In this document: positions 8,669 through 55,176 of the stretch, one piece after another
Numbering within the stretch: the stretch's first letter is position 1
How the letters are laid out: each line of letters starts with the position of its first letter
Source: a virus
Taxonomy: Duplodnaviria > Caudoviricetes
Reading direction: 5' to 3' (one strand)
DNA length: 64,000 bases
IMG/VR virus record: IMGVR_UViG_3300014208_000024
Location: 308,284 to 372,283 of that record
The notes under the pieces: generated by a model
What the model saw: only the letters and a program-made list of their open reading frames with translations
Database searches by the model: none
Told to the model about the DNA's origin: nothing
Position numbers and translations under genes: made by a program

Positions 8669-8782
8669 AACTTTTGGTTTTAATTGGTTTATGGATCTAT
8701 AAAGCAAATAAAAATAAAAAGTGGGAACGTACCACTTTATTAAATAATTTGCTTTATATACTCAACCAATAACTTTAACACT

Positions 8783-9223
8783 ATGGATAATTACGAAAAA
8801 TCAAACAGTATTGAGGCTTTGCCCAATGTAAAATTTTCAAGTACAAAAACTCTTTTTTCTTATATGAGGGAAAAAGGCGTGGTAACTCAAGACGACTTGC
8901 AAAGAGTAGCAGACGCTATATGCAATGATTTAAAAGTATCAAAGGTAAATATTATCTTTGGGGGCGTACAAAACAATACAAGGGTAAATGGCAAACTCAA
9001 ATCAAAAACTCTCGGTACTTATAACACAGGGTCAACAAACATAAGAATTTTTCAATTTACTGCTGTAAAAAAACAGGCGGTTGCCACGAAAACAACCTTT
9101 GACACCTTGCTTCACGAATTAATGCACCATTTCGACTATAAGATATTAAATTTACAACAGTCAATTCATTCGGGGGGCTTTTACAAAAGAATAGGAAATT
9201 TAAAAACTGCTTTGTTAAGTTAA
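8783..9223 (+). CDS. SprT-like zincin metallopeptidase-domain protein
   Basis: TLLHELMHH (HExxH) with downstream H; class-A promoter. Confidence 0.7.
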   Translation: MDNYEKSNSIEALPNVKFSSTKTLFSYMREKGVVTQDDLQRVADAICNDLKVSKVNIIFGGVQNNTRVNGKLKSKTLGTYNTGSTNIRIFQFTAVKKQAVATKTTFDTLLHELMHHFDYKILNLQQSIHSGGFYKRIGNLKTALLS

Positions 9224-9367
9224 GGGAAAGGGGGCAACCCCTTTTTTTATTTTCTTTTTTTTAATTTCTGTTTTGTAGTAAACCAATAGACAAAAATACA
9301 AAAAGGTCAATTCCCACTTTTTCAGAAAATTTGCTTTATATACTCACCAACCAACCAAACCAAAAAT

Positions 9368-9673
9368 ATGAAAACAATCGTAACGCCTTTCGAGCAGGCA
9401 CAGGAAGCTGTCCGCAATGGAAAACTGACAACCCCAACAGTTGTTGCAGAGGGAAAACAAATCGATTATTTCGGTTATCAGATCAGTGTTCACAGGTTTA
9501 ATCTGAGAATAATGGCAGGGGATATGAAATTCAGGGGCGTCAAATTAAGAGATTTAAAGAATTATTACGGTCTGACAGGTCGCAGTGCAAGTGAATGCCT
9601 TGCACAGTTTGAAAATGTAGTAGCGGACTATCGCAGGCGGTTCAATCTACTGCAATCAGTAAACAAAAATTAA
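9368..9673 (+). CDS. Hypothetical protein
   Basis: ORF behind class-A promoter; ends at terminator. Confidence 0.75.
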   Translation: MKTIVTPFEQAQEAVRNGKLTTPTVVAEGKQIDYFGYQISVHRFNLRIMAGDMKFRGVKLRDLKNYYGLTGRSASECLAQFENVVADYRRRFNLLQSVNKN

Positions 9674-9965
9674 AAGGTGTGAAAGCCGAAAAAAGGGGGT
9701 GTGAAAGCCCTCTTTTATTTTTTTTTTAATTTTTTAAATTTCGGTATTGTCGTAAACCAACAAGCCAAACATCCAAAAATGGCAATTCCCACTTTTCCAG
9801 AAAATTTGCTTTATATAGTCACGTTCTTTCGGTAGTTAAAAAAAGCGATCACAGGGAAACAAAAAATTCCCACTTTTTCAGAAAATTCGCTTTATATACT
9901 CACAAGCTCTTTGACATACTGAAATCAGAAAAAATAAAGTTACCAAACCATAAAAAACAAAAATT

Positions 9966-10523
9966 ATGAAAGCTACTACATTATTACAGTTAATCGAAAG
10001 TTTCGATTTTTCAGGTGTGTCCTTTATTTCGATAAAAGGATATTGTTCAGACGAAAGTGAAAACAGCGAAATCGCTGATGTTGTTGTGAATGTTGGTGCG
10101 TCTTATGGAAATATGAAAGATGCCGATTTGATTACCCTTCAGGGTGCAGATGTTTCAAAACTTGCTTCAGACAATTTTGGTTTTGCAATTCTTGAACAGG
10201 CTGTAAAAGAAAAAATTCAGTCAATTATTGCACCAAACGAAAACCGTTCAAACGGTCAAAAAGATGCCTACATCAACCTTAACCCCAAAGGTACTCTGAA
10301 ATATTGCAAATCTACGGGCAGTGTTTTGATACAGGGTACGGTTGTTCGTAAAACTGTGATTAAAGAGGGTATTTTCAAAACAACAAATTCACGCCCTTTA
10401 ACCCTTGCAAAAAAACATATTGACAAGGTTCTTGATCTGAAAGTCGCAAAAATGCGATATTACAAAATTGCAAATATCACACGAAATGTAAAAGTTTCAG
10501 GTGATTGTATCGAAATCGAATAA
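9966..10523 (+). CDS. Hypothetical protein
   Basis: ORF behind class-A promoter; ends at terminator. Confidence 0.8.
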   Translation: MKATTLLQLIESFDFSGVSFISIKGYCSDESENSEIADVVVNVGASYGNMKDADLITLQGADVSKLASDNFGFAILEQAVKEKIQSIIAPNENRSNGQKDAYINLNPKGTLKYCKSTGSVLIQGTVVRKTVIKEGIFKTTNSRPLTLAKKHIDKVLDLKVAKMRYYKIANITRNVKVSGDCIEIE

Positions 10524-10863
10524 CGAAAGAAAACGATCAGGGAGAGGGGGGCAGGTTGCCCCTCTTTTTTTTTCTTTTTTTTTAAAAACCTTTCCCTGAT
10601 ATGGTGGTTTACGAGCAAACCGAAATTTAAAAAAAAGTTTTTAAAAACTTTCCCTGACATAAACTTTCCCTTGCGTTTCCCTGTATATAGAAAACGTTCC
10701 CTTTAAAACGGTTTTTAGGCTATTTTACAGGCTTTTTTTTATTACTGAATGATATTTGATATGTTTCCCCGATCAAAACGCTTTAAAATGCTTTAAAATG
10801 TTTCCCCAAAAACGTTCCCTCTTTTTCAATTTATTTGCTTTATATATTTTAAATAATTTAATT

Positions 10864-11517
10864 ATGAAATTAGATTTTTCAGGTCGCATAAATACTGATT
10901 ATACAAAGGTTTCCCTTACTCGCTCTTTTAAATATAAGGGCGGTTTTATTTCACCTAAGAGATTAAAAAACGGCAATGAAAAATTACATCATTGTTTTGT
11001 TTTCGATTTACCTGCTGTATTAAGTTGTCCTAATTGTAAAGGTTGCAAAGATAGTTGCTACGCTTTACAGGCACAAATGCAATATCCCGATGTAAGAGTT
11101 TTCAGGCATACAAATTTACATCTTGCTGTTTTTAATATAAGCAAGTTAAAAGAGTTAATTTGTTCACAATTGCAGACATCACGAACAAACATTGTTCGCA
11201 TACATGGTAGCGGTGATTTTTTCAGTCAACAGTATGTGGATATGTGGCTCGAAATAATTAAAATGTTTCCTGATAAAAAGTTTTACGCTTATACAAAAGC
11301 TGAGAAATTATTTACCTTTAAAAAATTATCAAACTTTAACCTTATTACATCGTTTATAGGGGGCAAATTGAATTACGGTGACATTGATTATTGCAACAGT
11401 TTAAAAGATCGTTATAACGCTTTTATTTGCCCTTGCGGAATTGATAAAACTGTTAAATGTGGAATTGATTGTAATTATTGTATAACGAATAAAAAGGTTT
11501 GTTTTTTGAAACATTAA
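10864..11517 (+). CDS. GP88-like (radical-SAM-related) phage protein
   Basis: FDLPAVLSCPxCxxCxxSCYA, RIHGSGDF and FYAYTK motifs typical of the phage GP88 family; likely start MKLDF. Confidence 0.7.
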   Translation: MKLDFSGRINTDYTKVSLTRSFKYKGGFISPKRLKNGNEKLHHCFVFDLPAVLSCPNCKGCKDSCYALQAQMQYPDVRVFRHTNLHLAVFNISKLKELICSQLQTSRTNIVRIHGSGDFFSQQYVDMWLEIIKMFPDKKFYAYTKAEKLFTFKKLSNFNLITSFIGGKLNYGDIDYCNSLKDRYNAFICPCGIDKTVKCGIDCNYCITNKKVCFLKH

Positions 11518-11797
11518 ACCTTTCTCACTTTCCCAGAAAATTTGCTTTATATATCCATGAGAAAATAAATAAACAAACCAAAAAGGAATTTAAAATGCGA
11601 AAGTAAGTTTGTCTTTTCCTCTTAGTAATATTAAAATAGTAACTCGCACTCACAAGGTGCGGGAAAAACGTTTTTTATTTTGTTTTTTTAAATTTCTGTT
11701 TTGTCGTAAACCAATTACAAAAAACTCCATAACTCTTTTTCCCTCTTTTTCATTTTATTTGCTTTATATATTCACAAACCAATTAAAACCAAAAGCT

Positions 11798-12034
11798 ATG
11801 AGTTTAACAATTCACATACAGGCAAAGTCCAAAAAAGAGATCAATGAAAAATTGGCTCAGGGTAAAAAAGTTTACGGAGAAAGTTATTCATTATTTGGCG
11901 GTGGTGGTACGTATGAATTGAACAAAGATTTGCCCACAGGTACGGTAATTAAAATCTTTGAGAAATATGTATCGGGCAACCCGTTTGTAAAATCTTATGG
12001 TACGTGGGCTGCGAGTAAAAACAAGGTGATATAA
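11798..12034 (+). CDS. Hypothetical protein
   Basis: Start MSLTI behind class-A promoter. Confidence 0.75.
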   Translation: MSLTIHIQAKSKKEINEKLAQGKKVYGESYSLFGGGGTYELNKDLPTGTVIKIFEKYVSGNPFVKSYGTWAASKNKVI

Positions 12035-12096
12035 AAATTCCCACTTTCCCAGAAAATTTGCTTTATATCTTTATAAACCAATTAAAACTGACAATC

Positions 12097-12381
12097 ATGA
12101 AAAGATCAATAGGTTTCAAAAGGAGTGAGGAAAGAGAAATTGAAGTTTCAAACAATTCTTTACCTGCCACAAATGAAGATCGTCCCAGTGAAATTTCCGT
12201 ACCAATGAGTTCTGCTCAGGTTGATCTACTTGAAACGATTCAAAACCTGTCTGAAATAATTGTGGACAAAAGTTTTGCAAAGTTTGCAGAAAACCAAAGA
12301 GTTTTATTTATTAAACAGCTTATCAATGCAGTTTCATTAAATTCTGAACTGACAACAAAAACAGCTATGCTGATGGTTTAA
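12097..12381 (+). CDS. Hypothetical protein
   Basis: Start MKRSI behind class-A promoter. Confidence 0.7.
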   Translation: MKRSIGFKRSEEREIEVSNNSLPATNEDRPSEISVPMSSAQVDLLETIQNLSEIIVDKSFAKFAENQRVLFIKQLINAVSLNSELTTKTAMLMV

Positions 12382-12875
12382 TCCCACTTTTTGAAATAAT
12401 TTGCTTTATACAGACATAAGAAATTGCCCGAAACAAATAATACTACAAATCATGAATAGAATAAGAGAACCCGATGTAAGTAAAAAAATTTATTTAGAAT
12501 TTATAAAACAATCCGTTGATCAAAAACTTTCGTAAAAAAGCAAAAAGGTATGCCGAGAATAAGATGCCCGAATAGGATAAAAACCCACTGAAAATTAACA
12601 AGAGTATTAACCCTAAATGAAAAATAGTATGATAAGAGCCTCTCCGAAATAAGCACATCTAATAATCTATAATATATAATAATCCGATTAAAACCCCTAC
12701 CCGTTTATATTTGGGCGGGGGTTTCTTTTTTTTATTTCTTTTTTTTAAATTTCTGTTTTGTCGTAAACCCTCCCTTTGAAACTTTCCCCAACCTTTCCCT
12801 GTTTTCCCCAGAGTTTTCCCACTTTTTCTTTTTATTTGCTTTATATACTTGTCAAACCAATTAAAACCAAAGATC

Positions 12876-13067
12876 ATGTCAAAAACAAAAAAATTCCACA
12901 AGCCGTCAAAAAGTGAAGTTGACGAAATGTATCTGAAAGCAAACCGCAAAGGTAGCAGACAGGCAGAACTTGAAAACGCCACAGGTTTTACCTCAAATCA
13001 CAAAGCACACAAAAGTAAAAAAGATTACAACAGAAAACCAAAGCACAAAGGAAGTTGGGATTGTTAA
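12876..13067 (+). CDS. Small basic protein
   Basis: Start MSKTKK behind class-A promoter; HKSKKDYNRKPKHK motif. Confidence 0.7.
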   Translation: MSKTKKFHKPSKSEVDEMYLKANRKGSRQAELENATGFTSNHKAHKSKKDYNRKPKHKGSWDC

Positions 13068-13122
13068 TCCCACTTTTATTTTTTATTTGCTTTATATAAT
13101 CACAAACCAAAAACAAAAACCA

Positions 13123-13455
13123 ATGAAAAGCATATTTGTAAAATTCGGGAACATGAGAGGTGAAGCGCAAGATTTTACCCTGTATCCGTACAATGGTGGT
13201 GATACGATTGTAATTCAATCAGACAAAAGAATTGCACAGATCAATCTGAAAACAGGTGAAACGATACTGAGCAAACAGGTTCAGGGCGGGGCTTATTTCA
13301 TGCACTTAAACGCATTTTTAGGGGCAACAGTTTGCCAATTTCCAAAAGATGAACTGATAAAAATTCAGGAATATTTGTGGAACAATGCAGGTGAAAAAAT
13401 TCATGGAGGTATTTTGATCACAGAAGACAAACCACTATTTTCAGTAAAATTATAA
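13123..13455 (+). CDS. Hypothetical protein
   Basis: Start MKSIF behind class-A promoter. Confidence 0.75.
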   Translation: MKSIFVKFGNMRGEAQDFTLYPYNGGDTIVIQSDKRIAQINLKTGETILSKQVQGGAYFMHLNAFLGATVCQFPKDELIKIQEYLWNNAGEKIHGGILITEDKPLFSVKL

Positions 13456-13524
13456 AAGAGGGGGCTTTCCCTCTTTTCCAGATAATTTGCTTTATATATT
13501 TACAAACCAATTAAAACCAAAAAG

Positions 13525-13881
13525 ATGAAAAAATCATTAGCATTATTAGCAAAAGGGTTTGAAAGCTCATGTTCAACCACACCCGAATTTGCCCAGTTTT
13601 TTCGCACCTTTAAAAGCGAATTTACAAAAGAACTTCAAAGCATTGGGGCAACCAAAATCGAAATGAACAGGGGTCATTTTTACCTGTCAGGTTTTTTTAC
13701 AAAAGGTGAAAAGATTTTCTATTTTTCTCTTTCCGATGTAAGAGGTTCAGACTTTGTTTTGGGCAGTGGTGGTGATCTTGATCTACTTTACAGAACTGCA
13801 AAACACTACAAAGATTGGTCAGGGGGTACAAATTGTTATGTAATAATCGAGGCGGGAATGGCTCAAAAAATGAGGTTATAA
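13525..13881 (+). CDS. Hypothetical protein
   Basis: ORF behind class-A promoter. Confidence 0.75.
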   Translation: MKKSLALLAKGFESSCSTTPEFAQFFRTFKSEFTKELQSIGATKIEMNRGHFYLSGFFTKGEKIFYFSLSDVRGSDFVLGSGGDLDLLYRTAKHYKDWSGGTNCYVIIEAGMAQKMRL

Positions 13882-13949
13882 AAAAGAGGGAACTTTCCCT
13901 CTTTTCTTTTTTATTTGCTTTATATATTTATAAACCAAAACTAATTTTT

Positions 13950-14174
13950 ATGAAAACAAATATTTTAAAATACAGTTTATACCTCATTTTTGTTTTAGCT
14001 TTAATTTCTAAAGTTGACGGTTGGGGTGCAATTCTTTCAGCAGTAAAAGAGTTTTCGTCTTTTGTTTTATTTATGGCAGTTATCATCGCCTTTGTTGTTT
14101 TGCTTTATATAATGTTCAACAAATCAAAATCTCTCAAACGTTTTGTTGACGACAAAGATAATGAACTGAAATGA
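13950..14174 (+). CDS. Small membrane protein
   Basis: Two hydrophobic segments; class-A promoter. Confidence 0.7.
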   Translation: MKTNILKYSLYLIFVLALISKVDGWGAILSAVKEFSSFVLFMAVIIAFVVLLYIMFNKSKSLKRFVDDKDNELK

Positions 14175-14238
14175 TCGTTTCCCACTTTTCAAAGAAATTT
14201 GCTTTATATAATCACAAACCAATTAAAAACCAAAAATC

Positions 14239-14583
14239 ATGAAAAAAGCAAACATAGTATTTAATGACCAGAGAATACCATCGGAATATCTGAACACAAT
14301 TCTCGTTGAAAATGTTAAAGATCTCATAAGCGCCCACAATTTTGTATTTGGATCTACATTCAGCGATTTTGCAAAAAAAGCATTAACAGGACTTAAAAAA
14401 ACAAGCGATATAACATTCAGGATTGAAAGTTTAATAAGGAATGAAAATCTTGCCCCTCAAACAAAAATCTGCTTTATAAATCAATTAAAAGCTGTCCTTT
14501 CGGGTAATTTTATCAGAATGAATAATGCAGGGGGTTACTTTGATTTTGACCCTAACAAAGCAACAATAACGAAATTAAAATAG
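14239..14583 (+). CDS. Hypothetical protein
   Basis: ORF behind class-A promoter; followed by terminator. Confidence 0.75.
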   Translation: MKKANIVFNDQRIPSEYLNTILVENVKDLISAHNFVFGSTFSDFAKKALTGLKKTSDITFRIESLIRNENLAPQTKICFINQLKAVLSGNFIRMNNAGGYFDFDPNKATITKLK

Positions 14584-14772
14584 GTTTTTTCATAGTTTAA
14601 TTGTTTAAATTGGTTTGAAGGGGGGCTGGTTACCTCCCTTTTTTTTATTTTCTTTTTTTAAATTTCGGTTTGGTCGTAAACCATACCTTTTTGATTTTTC
14701 ACCTGTGACTTCCCATGTTCCACTTTCTCAAATAATTTGCTTTATATACTCATAGCAAAAAACCATAAACAA

Positions 14773-15009
14773 ATGAAAACAATAGATAAAATTATAACCA
14801 AAGTAGATTGCAAATTCGGAGCGCCAATGGGAAGATATAATATAGGCAACAAGCCAACAAACAAAAGAGTTTTTGATTGTGCAGTCCCAATGAGTTGTGA
14901 CGGTGCTTATGATAAAGGTGGGGCATATTTTGGGATTGGAAAACAATTAAGAGTTGAGTACACAAAAGATTTATCTTATGTGAAATTTTACAGGAGGGGA
15001 GAAAAATAA
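14773..15009 (+). CDS. Hypothetical protein (GAPMGR family)
   Basis: CKFGAPMGR...YDKGGAYFG motif; class-A promoter. Confidence 0.75.
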   Translation: MKTIDKIITKVDCKFGAPMGRYNIGNKPTNKRVFDCAVPMSCDGAYDKGGAYFGIGKQLRVEYTKDLSYVKFYRRGEK

Positions 15010-15064
15010 TTCCCACTTTTCAAAGAAATTTGCTTTATATACTCATAACCAAAAACCAAAACCA

Positions 15065-15256
15065 ATGACAAAAGAAAAAACTTATACAGGTGCTTATAAA
15101 GTAGTTCAAATTTTCAGAGTTTCTAAAAGGCGTAAAACTTTAAAGCGTGGTTTAACAAAAGAAGAAGCAATGAGGGTTGTTAACAGATACCCCAACAGTT
15201 CTCGGAGTATGGTTGTATTTATGAAGCAATTTAGTGCTGATAAATATTTTGTTTAA
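15065..15256 (+). CDS. Hypothetical protein
   Basis: ORF behind class-A promoter. Confidence 0.7.
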   Translation: MTKEKTYTGAYKVVQIFRVSKRRKTLKRGLTKEEAMRVVNRYPNSSRSMVVFMKQFSADKYFV

Positions 15257-15281
15257 CGGTTGTATAATAAAAAACAATTAA

Positions 15282-15668
15282 ATGAGATTCATTCTAAGAC
15301 CATTTTGCATATTGATAGTAAAGTTTTTACAAAGAAGGTATAAACAAATAACTATTAAAAACAGGCACAATCAGACAAATCAGGTTTTATCAAAATTAAA
15401 ACTGATACAATCAATTTTATATTATTTTAAAAGTCAATTTCATGCTTGGGGTTATTTTCACCCCGATTGTGGATGGAGCGAAAAAGATGAATTTAAGTTT
15501 AGGAAACTGTTTCCTACAAAAGATTTTGAAGAGCTTGATTTAGTTGTTTTGCACAATCCTAATGCGATAACTTATTATCAGAATAGGATATATGACCTAA
15601 CAAACGGAAAGAGCGTTAAATCCAGCGATATTGAGAAACAGTTAAGAAAGTGGAATGATTGGAATTAA
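15282..15668 (+). CDS. Hypothetical protein
   Basis: ORF co-transcribed with previous gene. Confidence 0.65.
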   Translation: MRFILRPFCILIVKFLQRRYKQITIKNRHNQTNQVLSKLKLIQSILYYFKSQFHAWGYFHPDCGWSEKDEFKFRKLFPTKDFEELDLVVLHNPNAITYYQNRIYDLTNGKSVKSSDIEKQLRKWNDWN

Positions 15669-15720
15669 TCCCACTTTCTACAATAATTTGCTTTATATCC
15701 ACAACCAAAACCTTAAAATT

Positions 15721-15942
15721 ATGACTGAATTACAATTTATTCTTTTAGAAATTATTATTTTAATAATTATTTATCTTGGGTGTTTCTGTTTAATTTTTAA
15801 GTCAATGGTTTTTAATACAGCAGAAGAAGAAATTAAAAACATGAAAATAAGCAATATAGTTGCTTTGATAGTAGTTTCAATCTGTGTTATTTGTATTTAC
15901 ATAAATTATCCGACATTCCCAATTTCCCACTTTCCCCAATAA
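15721..15942 (+). CDS. Small membrane protein
   Basis: Two TM-like segments; class-A promoter. Confidence 0.7.
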   Translation: MTELQFILLEIIILIIIYLGCFCLIFKSMVFNTAEEEIKNMKISNIVALIVVSICVICIYINYPTFPISHFPQ

Positions 15943-15978
15943 TTTGCTTTATATATTCATAACCAAAAATCAAAAGTC

Positions 15979-16197
15979 ATGATAGAATATCGCAAAAGAT
16001 ACAGTGAATCAACCACACGTTCAACTTCACCCATAACAAAAAAGGGTCAGGCAATAACTGTTCGCAAAGGAAAAAAGAAATTTAAAGTTATAATCACGCA
16101 CCCGAATTATGCTGGAAGCAATATAACTGAGGGGGATGCAAACGGAAAACATTATGTATGTTGGTTCAATTATGGTTCATGGTCTGTATCTAATTAA
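15979..16197 (+). CDS. Hypothetical protein
   Basis: ORF behind class-A promoter. Confidence 0.7.
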   Translation: MIEYRKRYSESTTRSTSPITKKGQAITVRKGKKKFKVIITHPNYAGSNITEGDANGKHYVCWFNYGSWSVSN

Positions 16198-16251
16198 TTC
16201 CCACTTTTTATTTTAATTTGCTTTATATATCCATAACCAAAAATAAAAGCC

Positions 16252-16488
16252 ATGCAATTAACTAAAGAAGAAAAAACAAATATATTCTGGTCGTTGCTTA
16301 AAGAATATCCCGAATTTGAAAGGAGCCGTAAACAAATGCCTTTAATTTTTAAAGGAGAAGAAAAAATATCAAAAATGATTAAAATCATTAATGATGGAGA
16401 AAAAAAAGCTTATGATTTGATCAAAAAGTTTGCTGATGAAATTGGAGAAAATATACCCGAATACAAGAATCCAAATTTGAGGGGGTAA
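16252..16488 (+). CDS. Hypothetical protein
   Basis: ORF behind class-A promoter. Confidence 0.7.
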   Translation: MQLTKEEKTNIFWSLLKEYPEFERSRKQMPLIFKGEEKISKMIKIINDGEKKAYDLIKKFADEIGENIPEYKNPNLRG

Positions 16489-16548
16489 TAATATTCCCAC
16501 TTTCCCAGGAAATTTGCTTTATATATCCATAACCAAAAAATAAAAGCC

Positions 16549-16974
16549 ATGCCAAAATTTGAATTAAGATCAAACCAGTACATTCCTTATCGTGGAAAAA
16601 GATTACAAAGTGGGATGCCTGCCAGTGCTACATACTTTTATTTCGTAAATGAAAACGGAAAAGTTGTGGACTTACAAACATTAAAACCATATAAGGGAAA
16701 ACAAATGAATCGTTATGCAATGCACGATAAAAAAGAGGCAAATTCTTTTCTTAAATTGATTAATAAAACTACAACTCACAAAGTTGAAAAGCCAAAGGGT
16801 ACTTTTTATTCTGATTATACCATAAAAGGTGATTGCTGTTATGCAATATTTGAAAACTGTGATGGAAGGGTTAATACAAAATTAGTTTGCAAAACAAAAA
16901 AAACGAATGACGATTGGAAAACTTTTAATATAAAGGAAACAAAAAGGAATTTATTTATAAATCTGGGAGAATAA
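16549..16974 (+). CDS. Hypothetical protein
   Basis: ORF behind class-A promoter. Confidence 0.7.
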   Translation: MPKFELRSNQYIPYRGKRLQSGMPASATYFYFVNENGKVVDLQTLKPYKGKQMNRYAMHDKKEANSFLKLINKTTTHKVEKPKGTFYSDYTIKGDCCYAIFENCDGRVNTKLVCKTKKTNDDWKTFNIKETKRNLFINLGE

Positions 16975-17027
16975 ACTCTCCCACTTTTCTTTTTTATTTG
17001 CTTTATATATTCACAAACCGCAAAGCT

Positions 17028-17405
17028 ATGTATAAAGTTTACAGATATGAAAGCCCTTATGATCAAACGGGGGTTTTTAATTGTAGCCTTTCAAAATTTC
17101 CTGATAAATACAAAGTTTCAAAATTGTGTGATAAAATTCATGGAGATCATATCGGAAATAAAGATCACCCCACTTTACAAACTGACGGGTTAGATTTTGC
17201 ACTTGAAATGACTGGGTTTTTATGTGCTTGTAATAGCATAAAAGAATTATTGAATTGGTTTGATAAATACAATAAAAAACTTATTAAAAGCGGTTTTGTA
17301 ATTGCTGAATATATTGTAATTGCAAAGTTTGACGGCAAATCTGGATTGCAATGTGTTTTCAATGAAAAGGCAATAATTGAAAGAAATGTTATTTCCACTT
17401 TTTAA
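17028..17405 (+). CDS. Hypothetical protein
   Basis: Start MYKVYRYE behind class-A promoter. Confidence 0.7.
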   Translation: MYKVYRYESPYDQTGVFNCSLSKFPDKYKVSKLCDKIHGDHIGNKDHPTLQTDGLDFALEMTGFLCACNSIKELLNWFDKYNKKLIKSGFVIAEYIVIAKFDGKSGLQCVFNEKAIIERNVISTF

Positions 17406-17448
17406 TAAAATTTGCTTTATATACTTATAACTTTAAAACCTTTCCCCA

Positions 17449-17718
17449 ATGAAAAAAACAATGTATTTAACGGTCAATGTTTCTGAAGGAAACGCTGAAC
17501 ATATTGGAACGATGAAAATTACATCGGCAGGTCAAATTGAAGGTAAATTAAAAGAAATGTTAGATTCACATTTTGATGCCAATGTTGAAGTTAAAAACGA
17601 TACACCGTTTCAATTAGAAGATTTTCTCTACGGCAGAACCGTTGAGCTTAAAGTGAAAGTTGATTCTGAAATAGACAGCATTGAAGAAATTATTATTCAG
17701 GAAACATGGTTATATTAA
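17449..17718 (+). CDS. Hypothetical acidic protein
   Basis: ORF behind class-A promoter. Confidence 0.7.
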   Translation: MKKTMYLTVNVSEGNAEHIGTMKITSAGQIEGKLKEMLDSHFDANVEVKNDTPFQLEDFLYGRTVELKVKVDSEIDSIEEIIIQETWLY

Positions 17719-17774
17719 ACTCCCACTTTCCCCAATAATTTGCTTTATATACTTATAAAACCAAAACTTTCCCA

Positions 17775-17930
17775 ATGGAAGAATTGAAAAAGAAAGTAAT
17801 TGCAAAGTTAATTACATACGGCAACAATGCAGAAGAAGTGAAAATTATGGTTGCAAAACACTTTGAATATGCTGCAAGTAATTATAAGACAGTGAAGACA
17901 ATTTGTGAATGTATCAGAACAATATATTAA
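17775..17930 (+). CDS. Small hypothetical protein (51 aa, not in ORF track)
   Basis: MEELKKKVIAKLITYG... directly behind class-A promoter. Confidence 0.65.
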   Translation: MEELKKKVIAKLITYGNNAEEVKIMVAKHFEYAASNYKTVKTICECIRTIY

Positions 17931-17949
17931 AACCTTAGAGCTTAACAAA

Positions 17950-18108
17950 ATGAATATAGAGAAAAGAAAAAAAAGCAATGCAGCTCACAAAGTTTTATCG
18001 CTAATGGATAAAGATTTTTCTTATGAAAAAGCTTTGAGAAAAGTTTTAAAATCAGATAAAAGATTAAACAAAGTAAAGCTTGAAAAAGAACTGGACTTTT
18101 ATATTTAA
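17950..18108 (+). CDS. Small hypothetical protein
   Basis: Likely start MNIEKRKK. Confidence 0.55.
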   Translation: MNIEKRKKSNAAHKVLSLMDKDFSYEKALRKVLKSDKRLNKVKLEKELDFYI

Positions 18109-30341: not shown

Positions 30342-30414
30342 TGCAAGGTAGAGCAGTAGTTAGCTTGCGGCGCTCATAACGCCGAGGTCGTCGGTGCAAA
30401 TCCGACCTTTGCAA
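30342..30414 (+). tRNA. trnM: tRNA-Met(CAT), initiator-like features
   Basis: Full cloverleaf; anticodon arm CGGCG-CTCATAA-CGCCG; A11-U24; T-loop TGCAAAT; lacks the three consecutive G-C anticodon pairs. Confidence 0.9.
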
Positions 30415-30562: not shown

Positions 30563-30634
30563 GCCCTGTTCGTATAGAAGTCAGTACAACGGTTTTTCAA
30601 GCCGTAAAGGAGATAGCATAATTCTCACAGGGTA
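30563..30634 (+). tRNA. trnE: tRNA-Glu(TTC), atypical T arm
   Basis: Acceptor GCCCTGT/ACAGGGT; anticodon arm ACGGT-TTTTCAA-GCCGT; T arm GAGAT-AGCATAA-TTCTC. Confidence 0.8.
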
Positions 30635-46265: not shown

Positions 46266-46628
46266 TTACATTGATTTAATAATAGATTGAAGGATTTCTA
46301 TTCTTTTTTTGGTTCCTATTTTTGTTCCTACTGGAAACCAATAGCACCCCAAAGATAAGTTTTTTTCTTTTGGTTTATATTTCAGCAATTCTTTATAGAT
46401 TGATTTATTGTTTAGATAATATCGGTTTTTTTGAATATATGAAACAAATTGGTCGAAGAAAAGTAAATTTGAAACTGCTAACTCTATAGTAAGACAAAAC
46501 CCATAAGTGTATACTCCATTTATTTTTGAATTTTCAATAATTCTCAGGGCTTCACAATAGATTTTTTTTCTAATAATTTTTGTGTTTCTAGTTTCGTTTG
46601 AAATTGGTATTAATAAACTATTTTTCAT
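46266..46628 (-). CDS. Paralog family member 1 (RKKIY..GFC..YWFP)
   Basis: Shared motifs with 46641, 54520 and 54847. Confidence 0.75.
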   Translation of the reverse strand: MKNSLLIPISNETRNTKIIRKKIYCEALRIIENSKINGVYTYGFCLTIELAVSNLLFFDQFVSYIQKNRYYLNNKSIYKELLKYKPKEKNLSLGCYWFPVGTKIGTKKRIEILQSIIKSM

Positions 46629-46640
46629 GATTGGTTTAAA

Positions 46641-46991
46641 TTACATTGATTTAATAATATCTTTCAGTATTTGGATTCTTTTACCGAAACCTTCTTTATT
46701 AGTTGGAAACCAATATCCGAACGCTCCTTTTTTTTTATATTTAAACAATTCGGTATATACATATCCATCCCAAAAGAGGTTAAATTTATCGTGTATTTTG
46801 TAGTTGGTTAACTTATTGAAATCAATAGCATTGAAAATAGCATAGCAGAATCCGAATGTAGGGTGATTATCTTTATTGATTTCAAAGATTTTCAAAGCTT
46901 TTTGATAGATTTTTTTTCTGAGGGCTTTGGTATTTCTTGTTTTATCTGTAATAATAATTTTTTCCATTGGAGGAAATATATATGCGGCCAT
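46641..46991 (-). CDS. Paralog family member 2 (RKKIY..GFC..YWFP)
   Basis: Shared motifs; behind TGAAAC-N16-CGTA. Confidence 0.75.
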   Translation of the reverse strand: MAAYIFPPMEKIIITDKTRNTKALRKKIYQKALKIFEINKDNHPTFGFCYAIFNAIDFNKLTNYKIHDKFNLFWDGYVYTELFKYKKKGAFGYWFPTNKEGFGKRIQILKDIIKSM

Positions 46992-52931: not shown

Positions 52932-53834
52932 ATGAAAAGTATTAATTATTCCGCAGTTCAGGTCAAGAGTGATTTGACAATAAAGACTGGAGATGAAACT
53001 TTTGACAGTTTTTTAAGCAATGATGGTGGTTTCATAGAGGGAAGCGCCATTTTTCTTACAGGAACCCCAGGGGCAGGCAAGACCACTCTTGCAATAGTTT
53101 TGCAGAAGTTGCTGAGGCAATACAAGACATCTCTTTATTCAAGAGAAATGACGGCATCCAGTGTTAAAGCACAGATGAAAAGGTATGCTGTTGATCATTC
53201 AAATGCTTACATTGCTGACAAAGACATGTGTCCAACGATAGATTCTTTTATCGAAGAATTAAATGAATTGAAGCCAAAGGTTGTTATTGTAGATTCTCTG
53301 CAGGTTATAATGAAAGAGGATTATGCAAATTCAACTGCAGAATCTTCAGGATTCAATATTATTCAGAAGCTTAGGGGATGGACCGAAAAGAACGAAGCTG
53401 TTCTTATTGTTGTTGGCCATGTAAACAAGGATGGTGAGTTTGAGGGCAGGAATACTATTCAGCACATGTTTGATTCACATTTGGAAATGATTTTTGACAA
53501 GAAAAAGGGAACAAGAACAATTTCCTGGGCAAAAAACAGGAAGGGTGCTGTTGGGGAAGTTCTTTATTATGAATTTGGTGAAGATTCTATAATTTTCCAC
53601 ACAAAGGAACAGTTTGAATCCATTAAGAACAGTAAAAAATTAGAGGATTATATTTTCGAAATGATTTCTTCTTTTCTTGGTTCTTTGGACAGAAAACATC
53701 CAGGTTATGAATCATTCAAAAAAGATTTGTTTAATAAATTCGAAGTTTTAAAGAATTCTAACAAAGATATGTTGGATGTTAACATAGAGTGTGTTTTGGC
53801 AATCAAAAGTCTTTTGAGTAAATATAAGATATGA
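52932..53834 (+). CDS. RadA/Sms-like RecA-family ATPase (lacks zinc finger and Lon-like domain)
   Basis: Walker A GTPGAGKTT, Walker B VVIVDSLQ, VGHVNKDG, IQHMFD and KNRKG motifs; TGTAAC-N16-CGTA promoter. Confidence 0.8.
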   Translation: MKSINYSAVQVKSDLTIKTGDETFDSFLSNDGGFIEGSAIFLTGTPGAGKTTLAIVLQKLLRQYKTSLYSREMTASSVKAQMKRYAVDHSNAYIADKDMCPTIDSFIEELNELKPKVVIVDSLQVIMKEDYANSTAESSGFNIIQKLRGWTEKNEAVLIVVGHVNKDGEFEGRNTIQHMFDSHLEMIFDKKKGTRTISWAKNRKGAVGEVLYYEFGEDSIIFHTKEQFESIKNSKKLEDYIFEMISSFLGSLDRKHPGYESFKKDLFNKFEVLKNSNKDMLDVNIECVLAIKSLLSKYKI

Positions 53835-53861: not shown

Positions 53862-54421
53862 GTAAATACTCTTGTGCAGAATAATATAAAAAAACAGAGT
53901 TAAAATAAAATGTCTAGACATGCCGTTTAGACTCCTTTTGTAGAAAAATATAAAAAATTTTTAATTCAGAATTAAAGTCAATTTTGCGATTTTGACTCCA
54001 TTTGGATTGATATAAAAAACAGAATTTAATAGGCTAACAACTCACCTTGCCCGATTTTGACTCCATTGCGGAACAATATAATAAAAAAATTGTAAATCAC
54101 AATAAATTTTATTGTAATATTTGGACTCCATTGTAGATTGATATAATAAACAGTAAAAGTACAGAAGCAATAAGTTGTGTACACAGCTTTGCCTTTTGAC
54201 TCTATTATAGATAAATATAAGAAACAGAAATTGTGAAAAATCCAATCACTGGCCGCACATTTGAACTCTATTGTAGATAGATATAAAAAAACAGGACGCA
54301 TCGGTTGTTTTTTTCAACTACTGGTTTTTGACTCCATTCGGATCTATATAAGAAACGGGCTCAAATAGTTTTTTTATCTATTCGCATGTTGTGACTCCCC
54401 CAGTGGATCGATATAAGAAAC
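53862..54421 (-). CRISPR. Degenerate CRISPR-like array: 9 repeats (32-34 bp) and 8 unique spacers (about 29-41 bp), no cas genes in window
   Basis: Period 63-74 bp; minus-strand consensus GTTTYTTATATCNATCYRCAATRGAGTCAAAAT; conserved TCY/RGA stem with an 8-nt 3' tail. Confidence 0.65.
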
Positions 54422-54449
54422 ATGTTGAGAATAGGAAGGCAACGTTTAA

Positions 54450-54507
54450 ATCTCTTTCTAAGAGCTTTGGTGTTCTTTGTATTTTTGGTAATATCAATTT
54501 CATTCAT
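54450..54507 (-). pseudogene. Truncated fifth paralog of the RKKIY..YWFP family, running into the array
   Basis: MNEIDITKNTKNTKALRKR matches the N-termini MEKIIITDKTRNTKALRKK and MNQIIITEKTKNPKTLRKR. Confidence 0.7.
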
Positions 54508-54519
54508 AACGTTTTTGTT

Positions 54520-54834
54520 TTACATATTTGAAATTATTTCTTCCAGGATTTTAATACGTTTATTTTTACCTTTTTCGTCGATAGGAAACCAATAACAATT
54601 ATAAGGTCTTTTAGGTTTATATTTTAACAATTCTTCATAAACATTATTAATAGACATCAAAACAAATTTATCTCGTTCTGGATAGAATGAATTTTGGTTA
54701 TCGATTGAAAAGACAATTGCGCTGCAAAAACCACAACTTCTTTTATTTTTAATATTATCCAGCGCCCTCTTATATATTCTCTTTCTGAGAGTTTTGGGGT
54801 TCTTGGTTTTTTCCGTAATAATAATTTGATTCAT
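54520..54834 (-). CDS. Paralog family member 3 (RKRIY..GFC..YWFP)
   Basis: Shared motifs. Confidence 0.75.
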   Translation of the reverse strand: MNQIIITEKTKNPKTLRKRIYKRALDNIKNKRSCGFCSAIVFSIDNQNSFYPERDKFVLMSINNVYEELLKYKPKRPYNCYWFPIDEKGKNKRIKILEEIISNM

Positions 54835-54846
54835 AATGTTTTTGTT

Positions 54847-55176
54847 TTACATTGAATTAATAATTTCTTTCAGAATTTTTACACGTTTTTTTGAACCGTA
54901 TTCGTTTCTCGGAAACCAGTATATACTATATTGATAGTTTCTTTTTGGTTTGTATTCCATTAGTTCTGTATATATGTTGTTTGGGTTTGCCATTGAGAAA
55001 ACACTAAACTCAAATCCAGAAATATTTTTATTAAACGCCATAGAAATAGCATAACAAAATCCAGAGAAAAAACTACTTTTAGATTCTTCATCAATAAATT
55101 TCATCGCAGACTCATAAACTTTTTTTCTTAGTTTTTTAGAGTTTTTTGTATTATATGTGAGATTTATTTGTTTCAT
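54847..55176 (-). CDS. Paralog family member 4 (RKKVY..GFC..YWFP)
   Basis: Shared motifs. Confidence 0.75.
   Translation of the reverse strand: MKQINLTYNTKNSKKLRKKVYESAMKFIDEESKSSFFSGFCYAISMAFNKNISGFEFSVFSMANPNNIYTELMEYKPKRNYQYSIYWFPRNEYGSKKRVKILKEIINSM

What the first reader, a model, noticed from the sequence alone, without database searches (positions are those of the whole stretch)
53862..54421. Cryptic CRISPR-like array whose 9 repeats all differ yet keep a covarying stem and an 8-nt handle
Seen: an ACTC-anchored repeat recurs at 53867, 53930, 53994, 54059, 54124, 54198, 54264, 54330 and 54393 (steps 63, 64, 65, 65, 74, 66, 66, 63), separated by unique spacers of about 29-41 nt. On the minus strand the repeats read GTTT..TATAT..TCY-loop-RGA-GTCAAAAT. 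The stem is kept in all nine copies by different pairs: TCC/GGA x4, TCT/AGA x3 and TCT/GGA x2. The last is a U-G wobble only on the minus strand, which fixes orientation. Exactly 8 nt follow the stem (GTCAAAAT, GTCCAAAT, GTTCAAAT, GTCACAAC and so on), and the most decayed copies are at the distal end. Known: class 1 repeats (I-B/III/IV) have this GTTT...AAAT/AAAC outline, and Cas6 cuts at the stem base leaving an 8-nt 5' handle. Inference: a phage array under RNA-structure selection, probably processed by host or distantly encoded Cas6-like proteins, acting as guides, regulatory crRNAs or multimeric RNA anti-CRISPR decoys. It is probably too degenerate for standard CRISPR finders.
Basis: partly seen in the sequence, partly recalled or inferred. 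Interest (0 to 1): 0.92.

Follow-up and report, generated by a model that had tools for sequence, protein, structure and literature searches.

The report
Cas-less CRISPR array in jumbo phage
A giant groundwater phage carries a worn nine-repeat CRISPR array of the same family that sits beside cas3-cas7-cas5-cas6 genes in sibling giant phages, but no such genes were found in it, so the array either works with borrowed proteins or is a leftover.

Summary
Nine degenerate 35-37-nt repeats (mean pairwise identity 65%) with unique 27-38-nt spacers lie at 53862-54424, and nowhere else in the 372-kb phage record.

It is a real CRISPR-family array. A metagenome scan with the repeat pattern found a regular array (36-nt repeat, 30-nt spacers) directly behind cas6. 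The same cas3-cas7fv-X-cas6-array cassette sits on several jumbo-phage-like contigs. A covariance model built only from those cas-linked arrays finds all nine units, on the minus strand. Across the family, the 3-bp stem covaries and exactly 8 nt follow it.

One cas-linked array (L172) also has about 18 repeats that all differ, so heterogeneity is a family trait.

This phage has no detectable cas6, cas7fv or cas3, either in the record or, by indirect evidence, on a 455-kb contig of the same phage. The array is fused to a truncated gene at the 3' end of a minus-strand operon. No spacer target, promoter or RNA data were found.

Function is open: crRNA-like RNAs acting in trans as decoy or guide (about 0.45), or an inert relic (about 0.4). 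Earlier follow-ups in this scan describe what appears to be the same cas cassette on other DNA.

The parts
53862..54424 (-). Whole cas-less array: 9 degenerate repeats and 8 spacers. The crRNA sense is the minus strand; the leader-proximal end is at 54424.
54388..54424 (-). Repeat 1 (leader-proximal, 'ph9'). It is the only copy with the family handle GTCACAAC and is 28/37 identical to the L080 repeat.
   Evidence: 27.1 bits
54360..54387 (-). Spacer (28 nt)
   Evidence: no target found
54325..54359 (-). Repeat 2 ('ph8'), with a short loop
   Evidence: 15.5 bits
54295..54324 (-). Spacer (30 nt)
   Evidence: no target found
54259..54294 (-). Repeat 3 ('ph7')
   Evidence: 20.9 bits
54229..54258 (-). 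Spacer (30 nt)
   Evidence: no target found
54193..54228 (-). Repeat 4 ('ph6')
   Evidence: 31.3 bits
54155..54192 (-). Spacer (38 nt, the long one)
   Evidence: no target found
54119..54154 (-). Repeat 5 ('ph5'), stem with a U-G pair
   Evidence: 33 bits
54090..54118 (-). Spacer (29 nt, AT-rich, palindromic)
54054..54089 (-). Repeat 6 ('ph4')
   Evidence: 31.8 bits
54024..54053 (-). Spacer (30 nt)
   Evidence: no target found
53989..54023 (-). Repeat 7 ('ph3')
   Evidence: 30.1 bits
53962..53988 (-). Spacer (27 nt)
53925..53961 (-). Repeat 8 ('ph2'), decayed
   Evidence: 15.1 bits
53898..53924 (-). Spacer (27 nt)
53862..53897 (-). Repeat 9 (distal, 'ph1'), the most decayed
   Evidence: 12.8 bits over 53871-53897
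54425..54507 (-). Pseudo-leader. It holds the first ~26 codons of a truncated fifth copy of a local paralog family, fused to the first repeat. No recognisable promoter is present.
54520..55176 (-). Two intact paralog genes (104 and 109 aa) directly upstream on the crRNA strand. They are the likely source of read-through transcription (inferred).
   Evidence: no Pfam or PHROG hits
52932..53834 (+). Neighbour, not part of the array: a RadA/KaiC-like ATPase gene convergent with the array. In relatives it lies elsewhere.

Best explanation
Shown: this is a cas-less, degenerate CRISPR array. It belongs to the repeat family that in other jumbo-phage-like contigs follows a compact cas3-cas7fv-(cas5fv?)-cas6 cassette, a type I-Fv-like system without cas1/cas2. 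The repeats are 36 nt, with a 3-bp UCY/RGA hairpin followed by an 8-nt handle.

Inferred: the array is transcribed on the minus strand by read-through from the small-gene operon into whose truncated last gene it is fused. Its hairpins, intact in all nine units, remain substrates for a Cas6 of this family. No such protein was found in this phage. Processing would therefore need Cas proteins supplied in trans, most plausibly by a co-infecting cas-bearing sibling phage, because every context found for the cassette is phage-like.

The resulting crRNA-like RNAs would then either occupy the rival's Cas6 and Cas7fv, acting as Racr-like decoys, or be loaded as guides. I lean to decoy or competitor. 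In this array the 8-nt handle that Cas5 should read is less conserved than the part upstream of the Cas6 cut, which is the reverse of the cas-linked arrays.

Confidence that it is a member of this CRISPR family is about 0.9. The 0.45 below is for 'still active in trans'.
For: A homologous regular array sits directly behind cas6. The same cassette appears in L171, L172, L173 and L176.

L171 carries a Thg1 gene 70% identical to this phage's, and an L169 flank gene also has a homologue here.

The independent covariance model hits all nine units on the minus strand. The stem covaries across the family, and 27 of 27 stem pairs are kept in this array.

The L172 array, next to cas genes, has about 18 repeats that all differ, so heterogeneity does not by itself mean decay.

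The array is fused to a truncated paralog at the 3' end of a minus-strand operon.

Cell counts for the 5' segment against the handle: phage 5/90 vs 18/72 differences (p 5e-4); family 69/280 vs 20/218 (p 6e-6), the reverse pattern. In RacrIF1 the part upstream of the Cas6f cut carries the inhibition (PMC10651486).

No prokaryote genome among 185,579 species holds an array with this pattern.
Against: There is no RNA evidence at all and no recognisable promoter.

No spacer target was found in the phage itself, in INPHARED, in IMG/VR by exact 20-mers, or in the cas loci. No spacer of the cas-bearing relatives matches this phage, so the supposed conflict is not documented.

The excess of invariant columns vanishes under a minimum-events null (P 0.39). 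Most invariant sites are A/T in a 29% GC genome.

Hairpin conservation may reflect selection before the cas genes were lost. The cell-count tests ignore shared descent of the copies.
Confidence: 0.45

Rival explanations
1. Inert relic. An ancestor carried the full cas3-cas7fv-cas5fv-cas6-leader-array locus. One deletion running from inside the paralog gene to the end of the leader removed the cas genes. The array has no function and is drifting.
For: No cas genes were found and there is no canonical leader or promoter. The handle is more degenerate than in cas-linked arrays. Mean pairwise repeat identity is only 65%, and two or three units score near noise. No targets were found. The invariant-column excess is not significant under the conservative null. 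Heterogeneity with a conserved hairpin already exists in cas-linked L172, so the pattern could be inherited.
Against: All 27 stem pairs are intact, and the central C-G pair is kept in 9 of 9 copies, while other G/C sites of the repeat are kept in roughly half. The array is identical in runs from two studies, 2018 and 2022. Cas-less arrays and repeat mimics in phages are known to be functional kinds (PMC7162821, PMC10651486).
Confidence: 0.38
2. Not orphan. The cognate cas genes lie in the ~82.5 kb of this phage that the 372-kb record lacks, or they are too divergent to recognise. The array would then be an ordinary phage-encoded guide array.
For: An ENA contig of the same phage is 455,767 bp and extends 82.5 kb beyond the record's start. 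Only about 7.7 kb of that extra stretch was read. Three ORFs of 1,109-1,197 aa have no family hit.
Against: Proteins of that contig are in the searched collection. None of the 97 Cas7fv-like homologues (E <= 1e-10) lies on a 455,767-bp contig, nor does any of the best 120 of 227 Cas6 homologues. In all six cas-linked loci the cassette abuts the array. Here a truncated unrelated gene abuts it.
Confidence: 0.08
3. A DNA-level element rather than an RNA: origin iterons or protein-binding sites beside the RadA-like ATPase gene, or nine tandem sigma-70-like promoters on the plus strand (TTGACT...TATAAT-like words).
For: The plus strand of the repeat contains TTGAC and TATAA(T/G) words, and one copy has a perfect TGnTATAAT. 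The period of 63-66 bp (74 once) is close to whole helical turns. A recombination or replication ATPase gene is adjacent.
Against: The unit is homologous to bona fide cas6-linked CRISPR repeats. The hexamer spacing is 14 nt, too short. The repeat matches neither of the phage's own promoter classes. Relatives that carry the ATPase gene have no such repeats, and the ATPase gene was moved here secondarily.
Confidence: 0.02
4. Plus-strand array of a type II-C or VI-B kind. The repeat starts GTTGTG and ends ACAAT, has the 36 + 30 nt layout, and has a -10-like box near the repeat's 3' end, as in Neisseria II-C arrays (comparison from memory).
For: The layout and the repeat ends resemble those arrays. 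An earlier scan report (e1-3669125) noted the same format.
Against: No Cas9 was found, and no anti-repeat turned up anywhere in the genome. The homologous arrays lie behind cas6 in the opposite sense, with the degenerate end distal in that sense. The U-G pairs fit only the minus strand.
Confidence: 0.02

Closest known systems
Type I-Fv (I-F2) CRISPR-Cas of Shewanella putrefaciens CN-32: a minimal Cascade of Cas7fv, Cas5fv and Cas6f (PMC4937334; PDB 5O6U)
   Same: The cas-linked relatives of this array encode a Cas7fv-like protein (PF28157; 5O6U chain C at E 5.6e-16; PADLOC Cas7fv 5.9e-22). They also encode a Cas3 and a Cas6, with no large or small subunit gene. A 290-aa protein sits in the Cas5fv position. 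A poor model of it (pLDDT 57) has its two best, weak PDB matches in I-F2/I-Fv Cascade chains.
   Different: The repeats are 36 nt with a 3-bp stem, not 28 nt with a strong I-F hairpin. The Cas6 is Cas6b-like, not Cas6f. Cas3 stands alone, and there is no cas1 or cas2. All contexts are phage-like. The window's phage has the array only.
Cas-less or effector-less CRISPR arrays of huge phages (Al-Shayeb et al. 2020, PMC7162821; landfill megaphages, PMC12607003)
   Same: A compact array in a jumbo phage, with no acquisition genes and no interference genes in cis. Those authors proposed use of Cas proteins from elsewhere, or silencing roles. They also describe orphan arrays on jumbo phages.
   Different: Here the nearest cas-linked repeats are on other phages, not on a host. 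Every repeat differs, so standard finders miss the array. It is also fused to a truncated gene instead of a leader.
RNA anti-CRISPRs (Racr; solitary repeat units), Camara-Wilpert et al. 2023, PMC10651486
   Same: Repeat mimics in a virus without cas genes. The Cas6 hairpin is kept. In RacrIF1 the part upstream of the Cas6f cut is what inhibits, and that is the better-conserved part here.
   Different: Racrs are solitary units, often just downstream of their own predicted promoter. Here there are nine units with spacer-length gaps and no promoter was seen. Inhibition is untested, and no acr gene is recognisable nearby.
Viral Cracr arrays (crRNA-like regulatory RNAs), Liu et al., bioRxiv 10.1101/2024.10.29.618823
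   Same: Multi-unit arrays of degenerate repeat-like sequences on phages. They compete for Cas proteins and redirect them.
   Different: Cracr spacers match cas or toxin promoters, and the described arrays hold two or three spacers. No seed match to the cas loci at hand was found here, and this array has eight spacers.

Membership tests
CRISPR array (generic definition) | Direct repeats of about 23-50 nt, regularly interspaced by unique spacers of similar length | tested here: met
   Nine repeats of 35-37 nt and spacers of 27-38 nt, all unique
CRISPR array (generic definition) | Repeats nearly identical to one another | tested here: not met
   Mean pairwise identity is 65% (range 43-86%). TRF reports nothing.
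CRISPR array (generic definition) | AT-rich leader with a promoter upstream of the first repeat | tested here: not met
   The upstream 83 nt are the 5' end of a truncated paralog gene. No promoter motif was found.
Jumbo-phage cas3-cas7fv-X-cas6 (I-Fv-like) array family | Repeat sequence and structure: 36 nt, UCY/RGA 3-bp stem, 8-nt handle (G/A)UCACAAC | tested here: met
   The covariance model built without the phage copies hits five units at E 0.0014-0.024 in a 418-kb search, and all nine locally. The handle is GUCAAAAN in most copies and GUCACAAC only in the first.
Jumbo-phage cas3-cas7fv-X-cas6 (I-Fv-like) array family | Sense strand the same as cas6, with degenerate repeats at the leader-distal end | tested here: met
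   L080 and L169 have ten perfect repeats after cas6, and the last two are decayed. Here the weakest units are at the far end of the minus-strand reading.
Jumbo-phage cas3-cas7fv-X-cas6 (I-Fv-like) array family | cas3, cas7fv, cas5fv-position gene and cas6 directly upstream of the array | tested here: not met
   tblastn and HMM searches of the 372-kb record found none. None of the listed Cas6 or Cas7fv homologues lies on the 455,767-bp contig. About 75 kb of that contig was not read directly.
Racr / solitary repeat unit | Repeat mimic in a virus, away from cas genes, keeping the Cas6-binding hairpin | tested here: met
Racr / solitary repeat unit | Solitary unit with its own promoter | tested here: not met
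   Nine units at spacer-length intervals; no promoter found
Racr / solitary repeat unit | Inhibits the cognate CRISPR-Cas system by forming aberrant Cas subcomplexes | not testable with these tools
   Needs expression with the L169/L171 Cas proteins
Cracr array (viral crlRNA) | Spacer-like part with PAM-proximal complementarity to a cas or toxin promoter | tested here: inconclusive
   The only seed matches to L169, L171, L172 and L173 come from two AT-rich spacers and are at chance level. The cognate locus may not be among the four.
Type II-C / VI-B array | Cas9 with a tracrRNA anti-repeat, or Cas13b | tested here: not met
   No Cas9. No second match to the repeat on either strand. PADLOC found nothing in the large unknown ORFs.

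The most novel reading that the evidence does not exclude
A cas-less jumbo phage keeps a 'frozen' array, whose repeats have drifted apart except where Cas6 reads them. It uses the array to jam or to re-aim the Cascade-Cas3 machinery that cas-bearing sibling phages bring into the same cell. This would be CRISPR parasitism between phages, carried out by a nine-unit RNA array rather than a single Racr.
Probability: 0.3. Interest if true: 0.75.

Novelty: new member of a known kind. Interest (0 to 1): 0.45.

Why it matters
If the array is active, it would be a natural case of one phage exploiting or blocking the CRISPR system of another phage. It would also extend RNA anti-CRISPRs from single repeat units to long arrays.

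Whatever its function, it shows two things. Arrays without acquisition genes can drift until repeat-based finders miss them, so cas-less phage arrays are probably undercounted. And the positions that survive the drift (hairpin core, handle) map what the family's Cas6 and Cascade need.

It also adds a data point on how the cas3-cas7fv-X-cas6 cassette is gained or lost among related jumbo phages.

Tried and rejected
Searches that found nothing:
- Rfam, at gathering threshold and at E <= 10, has no CRISPR-DR family on the repeats. A weak CRISPR-DR35 hit at 54444-54476 lies in the truncated gene and is taken as chance.
- blastn of the locus against INPHARED gave nothing, or only chance-level hits.
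- The repeat pattern in IMG/VR gave two single chance hits. In 185,579 prokaryote genomes it gave 41 single hits and no array.
- Spacers against the phage itself and all fetched loci gave nothing beyond 14-15 nt.
- Four exact 20-mers from spacers had no match in IMG/VR.
- Spacers of L080, L172 and L173 against this phage gave chance-level hits only.
- No RNA run was listed. A second DNA run only shows identical pieces.
- Neighbouring small proteins have no informative Pfam or PHROG match.

Ideas tested and rejected:
- 'Spacers are hairpins' (note e1-5378652): only 2 of 8 spacers are below p 0.05 against shuffles, and my combined estimate is p about 0.1.
- Spacer GC (0.33) is not unusual for intergenic DNA of this genome (P 0.16).
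- Tandem-promoter reading: the repeat matches neither the early nor the late-like promoter class of this phage.
- A coding repeat is excluded because the periods are not multiples of three.
- My first reading, a plus-strand type II-C-like array, was dropped once the cas6-linked homologues were found.

Inconclusive:
- The fold of the 290-aa Cas5fv-position protein has pLDDT 57, with only weak top matches to I-F2/I-Fv Cascade chains.
- The invariant-column test gives P < 5e-5 under a naive null and P 0.39 under a minimum-events null, so it is not used as evidence.

Full report
**Setting.** The window is the last 64 kb of a 372,283-bp IMG/VR virus record with 28.7% GC. It comes from a groundwater metagenome. 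The genome encodes a T4-type Gp23 capsid protein, a Gp20 portal, Pol III alpha and many small unknown genes, so it is a jumbo phage. An ENA contig of the same phage is 455,767 bp and extends about 82.5 kb beyond the record's start. The record is therefore partial.

**The observation.** Nine units anchored on ACTC lie at 53868 to 54394, with steps of 63, 64, 65, 65, 74, 66, 66 and 63. The plus-strand consensus is TTTTGACTCCATTGTAGATTGATATAAGAAACAG. ACTC, RGA and ATATAA are invariant. A profile of the nine units finds them only here in the genome. TRF and Rfam report nothing, and mean pairwise identity is 65%. The region is non-coding, because the periods are not multiples of three. It lies between a RadA/KaiC-like ATPase gene (52932-53834, +) and small minus-strand genes.

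**What it is.** Scanning JGI metagenomes with a pattern that fits five of the nine units returned one contig with 12 matches at a 66-nt period.
- That contig, L080, holds ten perfect copies of ATTGTTTCTTATATTAATCCGTAAGGGAGTCACAAC, then two decayed copies, with 30-nt spacers. The array begins 113 nt after a gene for a Cas6 (Pfam Cas_Cas6_C 3.5e-9; PADLOC Cas6b 7.4e-27).
- Longer copies of the same element (L167, L169, L170) show cas3 (776 aa, HD plus helicase), a Cas7fv-like gene, a 290-aa gene, cas6, then the array. No cas1 or cas2 is present.
- The Cas7fv-like protein matches the solved Shewanella Cas7fv (5O6U, E 5.6e-16).
- Cas6 homologues sit in the same cassette on L171, L172, L173 and L176. 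L171 is a 25-kb contig and L172 a 135-kb one, whose Cas6 also occurs on contigs of up to 380 kb. L173 is a 310-kb contig and L176 a 48-kb one. All four have phage-like contexts, meaning many small unknown genes together with DUF723, sigma-70, SmpB, IF3 or Thg1 genes.
- L171 carries a Thg1 gene 70% identical to this phage's. An L169 flank gene is 34% identical to the conserved gene downstream of ClpB here.
- No array with the pattern exists in 185,579 prokaryote species genomes.

**Membership and strand.** A covariance model built only from 27 repeats of L080, L172 and L173 hits the phage units on the minus strand. In a 418-kb search, five units have E 0.0014-0.024 and nothing else in the genome stands out. 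In a local search, all nine are the top minus-strand hits, from 33 down to 12.8 bits, with the two distal units weakest.

Across 37 distinct repeats, the 3-bp stem is paired in nearly every sequence. Pair 20-27 reads CG 27, UA 5, UG 5 and is never unpaired. Double-sided changes total 9 cells against 3.1 +/- 1.3 in shuffles, with 0 of 500 shuffles reaching that.

Exactly 8 nt follow the stem in the perfect repeats.

Within the nine copies alone the evidence is thin. Only one pair covaries (p about 0.12). Pairing is 27/27 on the minus strand against 25/27 on the plus strand. The invariant-column excess depends on the null used.

**Heterogeneous repeats are a family trait.** The L172 array, next to its cas genes, has 26 repeats. 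The first eight are regular. The other 18 or so all differ in the 5' half but keep the UCCGYAAKGGAAUCACAAC part. A likely reason (inference) is that, without Cas1-Cas2, no new leader-end repeats are made, so old repeats drift apart except where Cas6 and Cascade read them. An earlier follow-up in this scan reached the same description on other DNA (e1-3488863).

**What is missing here.** No Cas6, RAMP, Cas9 or TnpB-type hit passes threshold in the record. PADLOC found nothing in seven large unknown ORFs. tblastn with the L169 Cas proteins found nothing. For the unseen 82.5 kb, the evidence is indirect: none of the 97 Cas7fv-like homologues, and none of the best 120 Cas6 homologues, lies on a 455,767-bp contig, although that contig's proteins are in the collection. 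About 7.7 kb of the unseen part was read. It holds a TnpB gene and no cas genes.

**Local anatomy.** The 83 nt upstream of the first repeat encode the first ~26 residues of a fifth copy of a paralog family (54520-54834, 54847-55176, 46266-46628, 46641-46991). Homology ends just before the repeat (testing note e1-5378653). So the array has no leader of its own and sits at the 3' end of a minus-strand operon. Read-through transcription is plausible but not shown, and no promoter motif was found.

On the other side, the ATPase gene has been moved. In relatives it lies between a 507-aa gene and a 94-aa gene. That block is intact at 84-91 kb in this genome but lacks the ATPase gene.

**Function.** No spacer target was found. 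No relative's spacer hits this phage. No RNA run was listed. A second DNA run, from another study, holds identical pieces.

One contrast may matter. In this array the 8-nt handle varies more than the 5' segment (18/72 against 5/90 cells), whereas in cas-linked arrays it is the reverse (20/218 against 69/280). Because RacrIF1 inhibits through the part upstream of the Cas6f cut (PMC10651486), this leans towards a decoy rather than precise guides. It fits relaxed selection after cas loss equally well, and A/T sites are expected to be stable in this genome.

My weights are: trans-acting crRNA-like RNAs about 0.45, inert relic about 0.38, hidden cas genes about 0.08, other readings about 0.04.

**Known or new.** These kinds are already described:
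- cas-less arrays in huge phages (PMC7162821; PMC12607003);
- Racrs (PMC10651486);
- multi-unit Cracr arrays (bioRxiv 10.1101/2024.10.29.618823);
- the I-Fv minimal Cascade (PMC4937334).

Two earlier follow-ups in this scan, on other DNA, describe a jumbo-phage cas3-cas7-cas5-cas6 module closest to type I-Fv, which appears to be the same cassette family. This case is a new member: a cas-less sibling whose nearest cas-linked repeats are on other phages.

Noticed in passing
G000 start; L177:12527-13687: The 372-kb IMG/VR record, rated 100% complete by CheckV, is partial. An ENA contig of the same phage is 455,767 bp. The record starts inside a 386-aa TnpB (IS605 OrfB) gene.
   Followed up: partly
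window 52932-53834 vs G000 84-91 kb: In relatives the RadA/KaiC-like ATPase gene lies between a 507-aa gene and a 94-aa gene, near ClpB and a TROVE/Ro60 gene. Here that block is intact but lacks the ATPase gene, which sits next to the array instead.
   Followed up: partly
window 46266-46991, 54361-55176: A family of ~105-120-aa proteins has four intact copies and one truncated copy. They share the motifs TKNTKxLRKK and YWFP...KKRIxIL. No Pfam or PHROG match.
   Followed up: partly
L172:8803-10592: A cas-linked jumbo-phage array with 26 repeats. About 18 of them all differ in the 5' half but keep the hairpin and handle. The two leader-end repeat types differ from the rest.
   Followed up: partly
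L080:3476-3916 and L169 array flank: A TnpB/Cas12f-like N-terminus (HTH_OrfB_IS605) lies about 800 nt beyond the distal end of the cas6-linked array. That element shows the same spacers wherever its array was read (three JGI metagenomes, two of them partial reads); an SRA run holds the cassette, but its array DNA could not be read.
   Followed up: no
window 8700-18000 (G000 317-326 kb) and genome-wide: Two phage promoter classes were seen. One is an early-region motif, TCCCACTTTT-N6-AATTTGCTTTATATAnTCA, before dozens of small genes. The other is CTATTTATA, about 15-25 nt before many genes of the structural region.
   Followed up: partly
run X1, record 3 (3,109-nt contig), against window 53996-54027: Another contig of the source sample matches one repeat unit at 30 of 32 bases. 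The contig could not be fetched, so whether it is an array is unknown.
   Followed up: no
L008:7513-10890 (G000 140.3-143.7 kb); L014:9117-12173: The T4-type portal gene carries an intein. An SNF2 helicase gene carries a LAGLIDADG insert.
   Followed up: no
window 30342-30414, 30563-30634: Two tRNA genes, the only Rfam gathering-level hits in the window.
   Followed up: no
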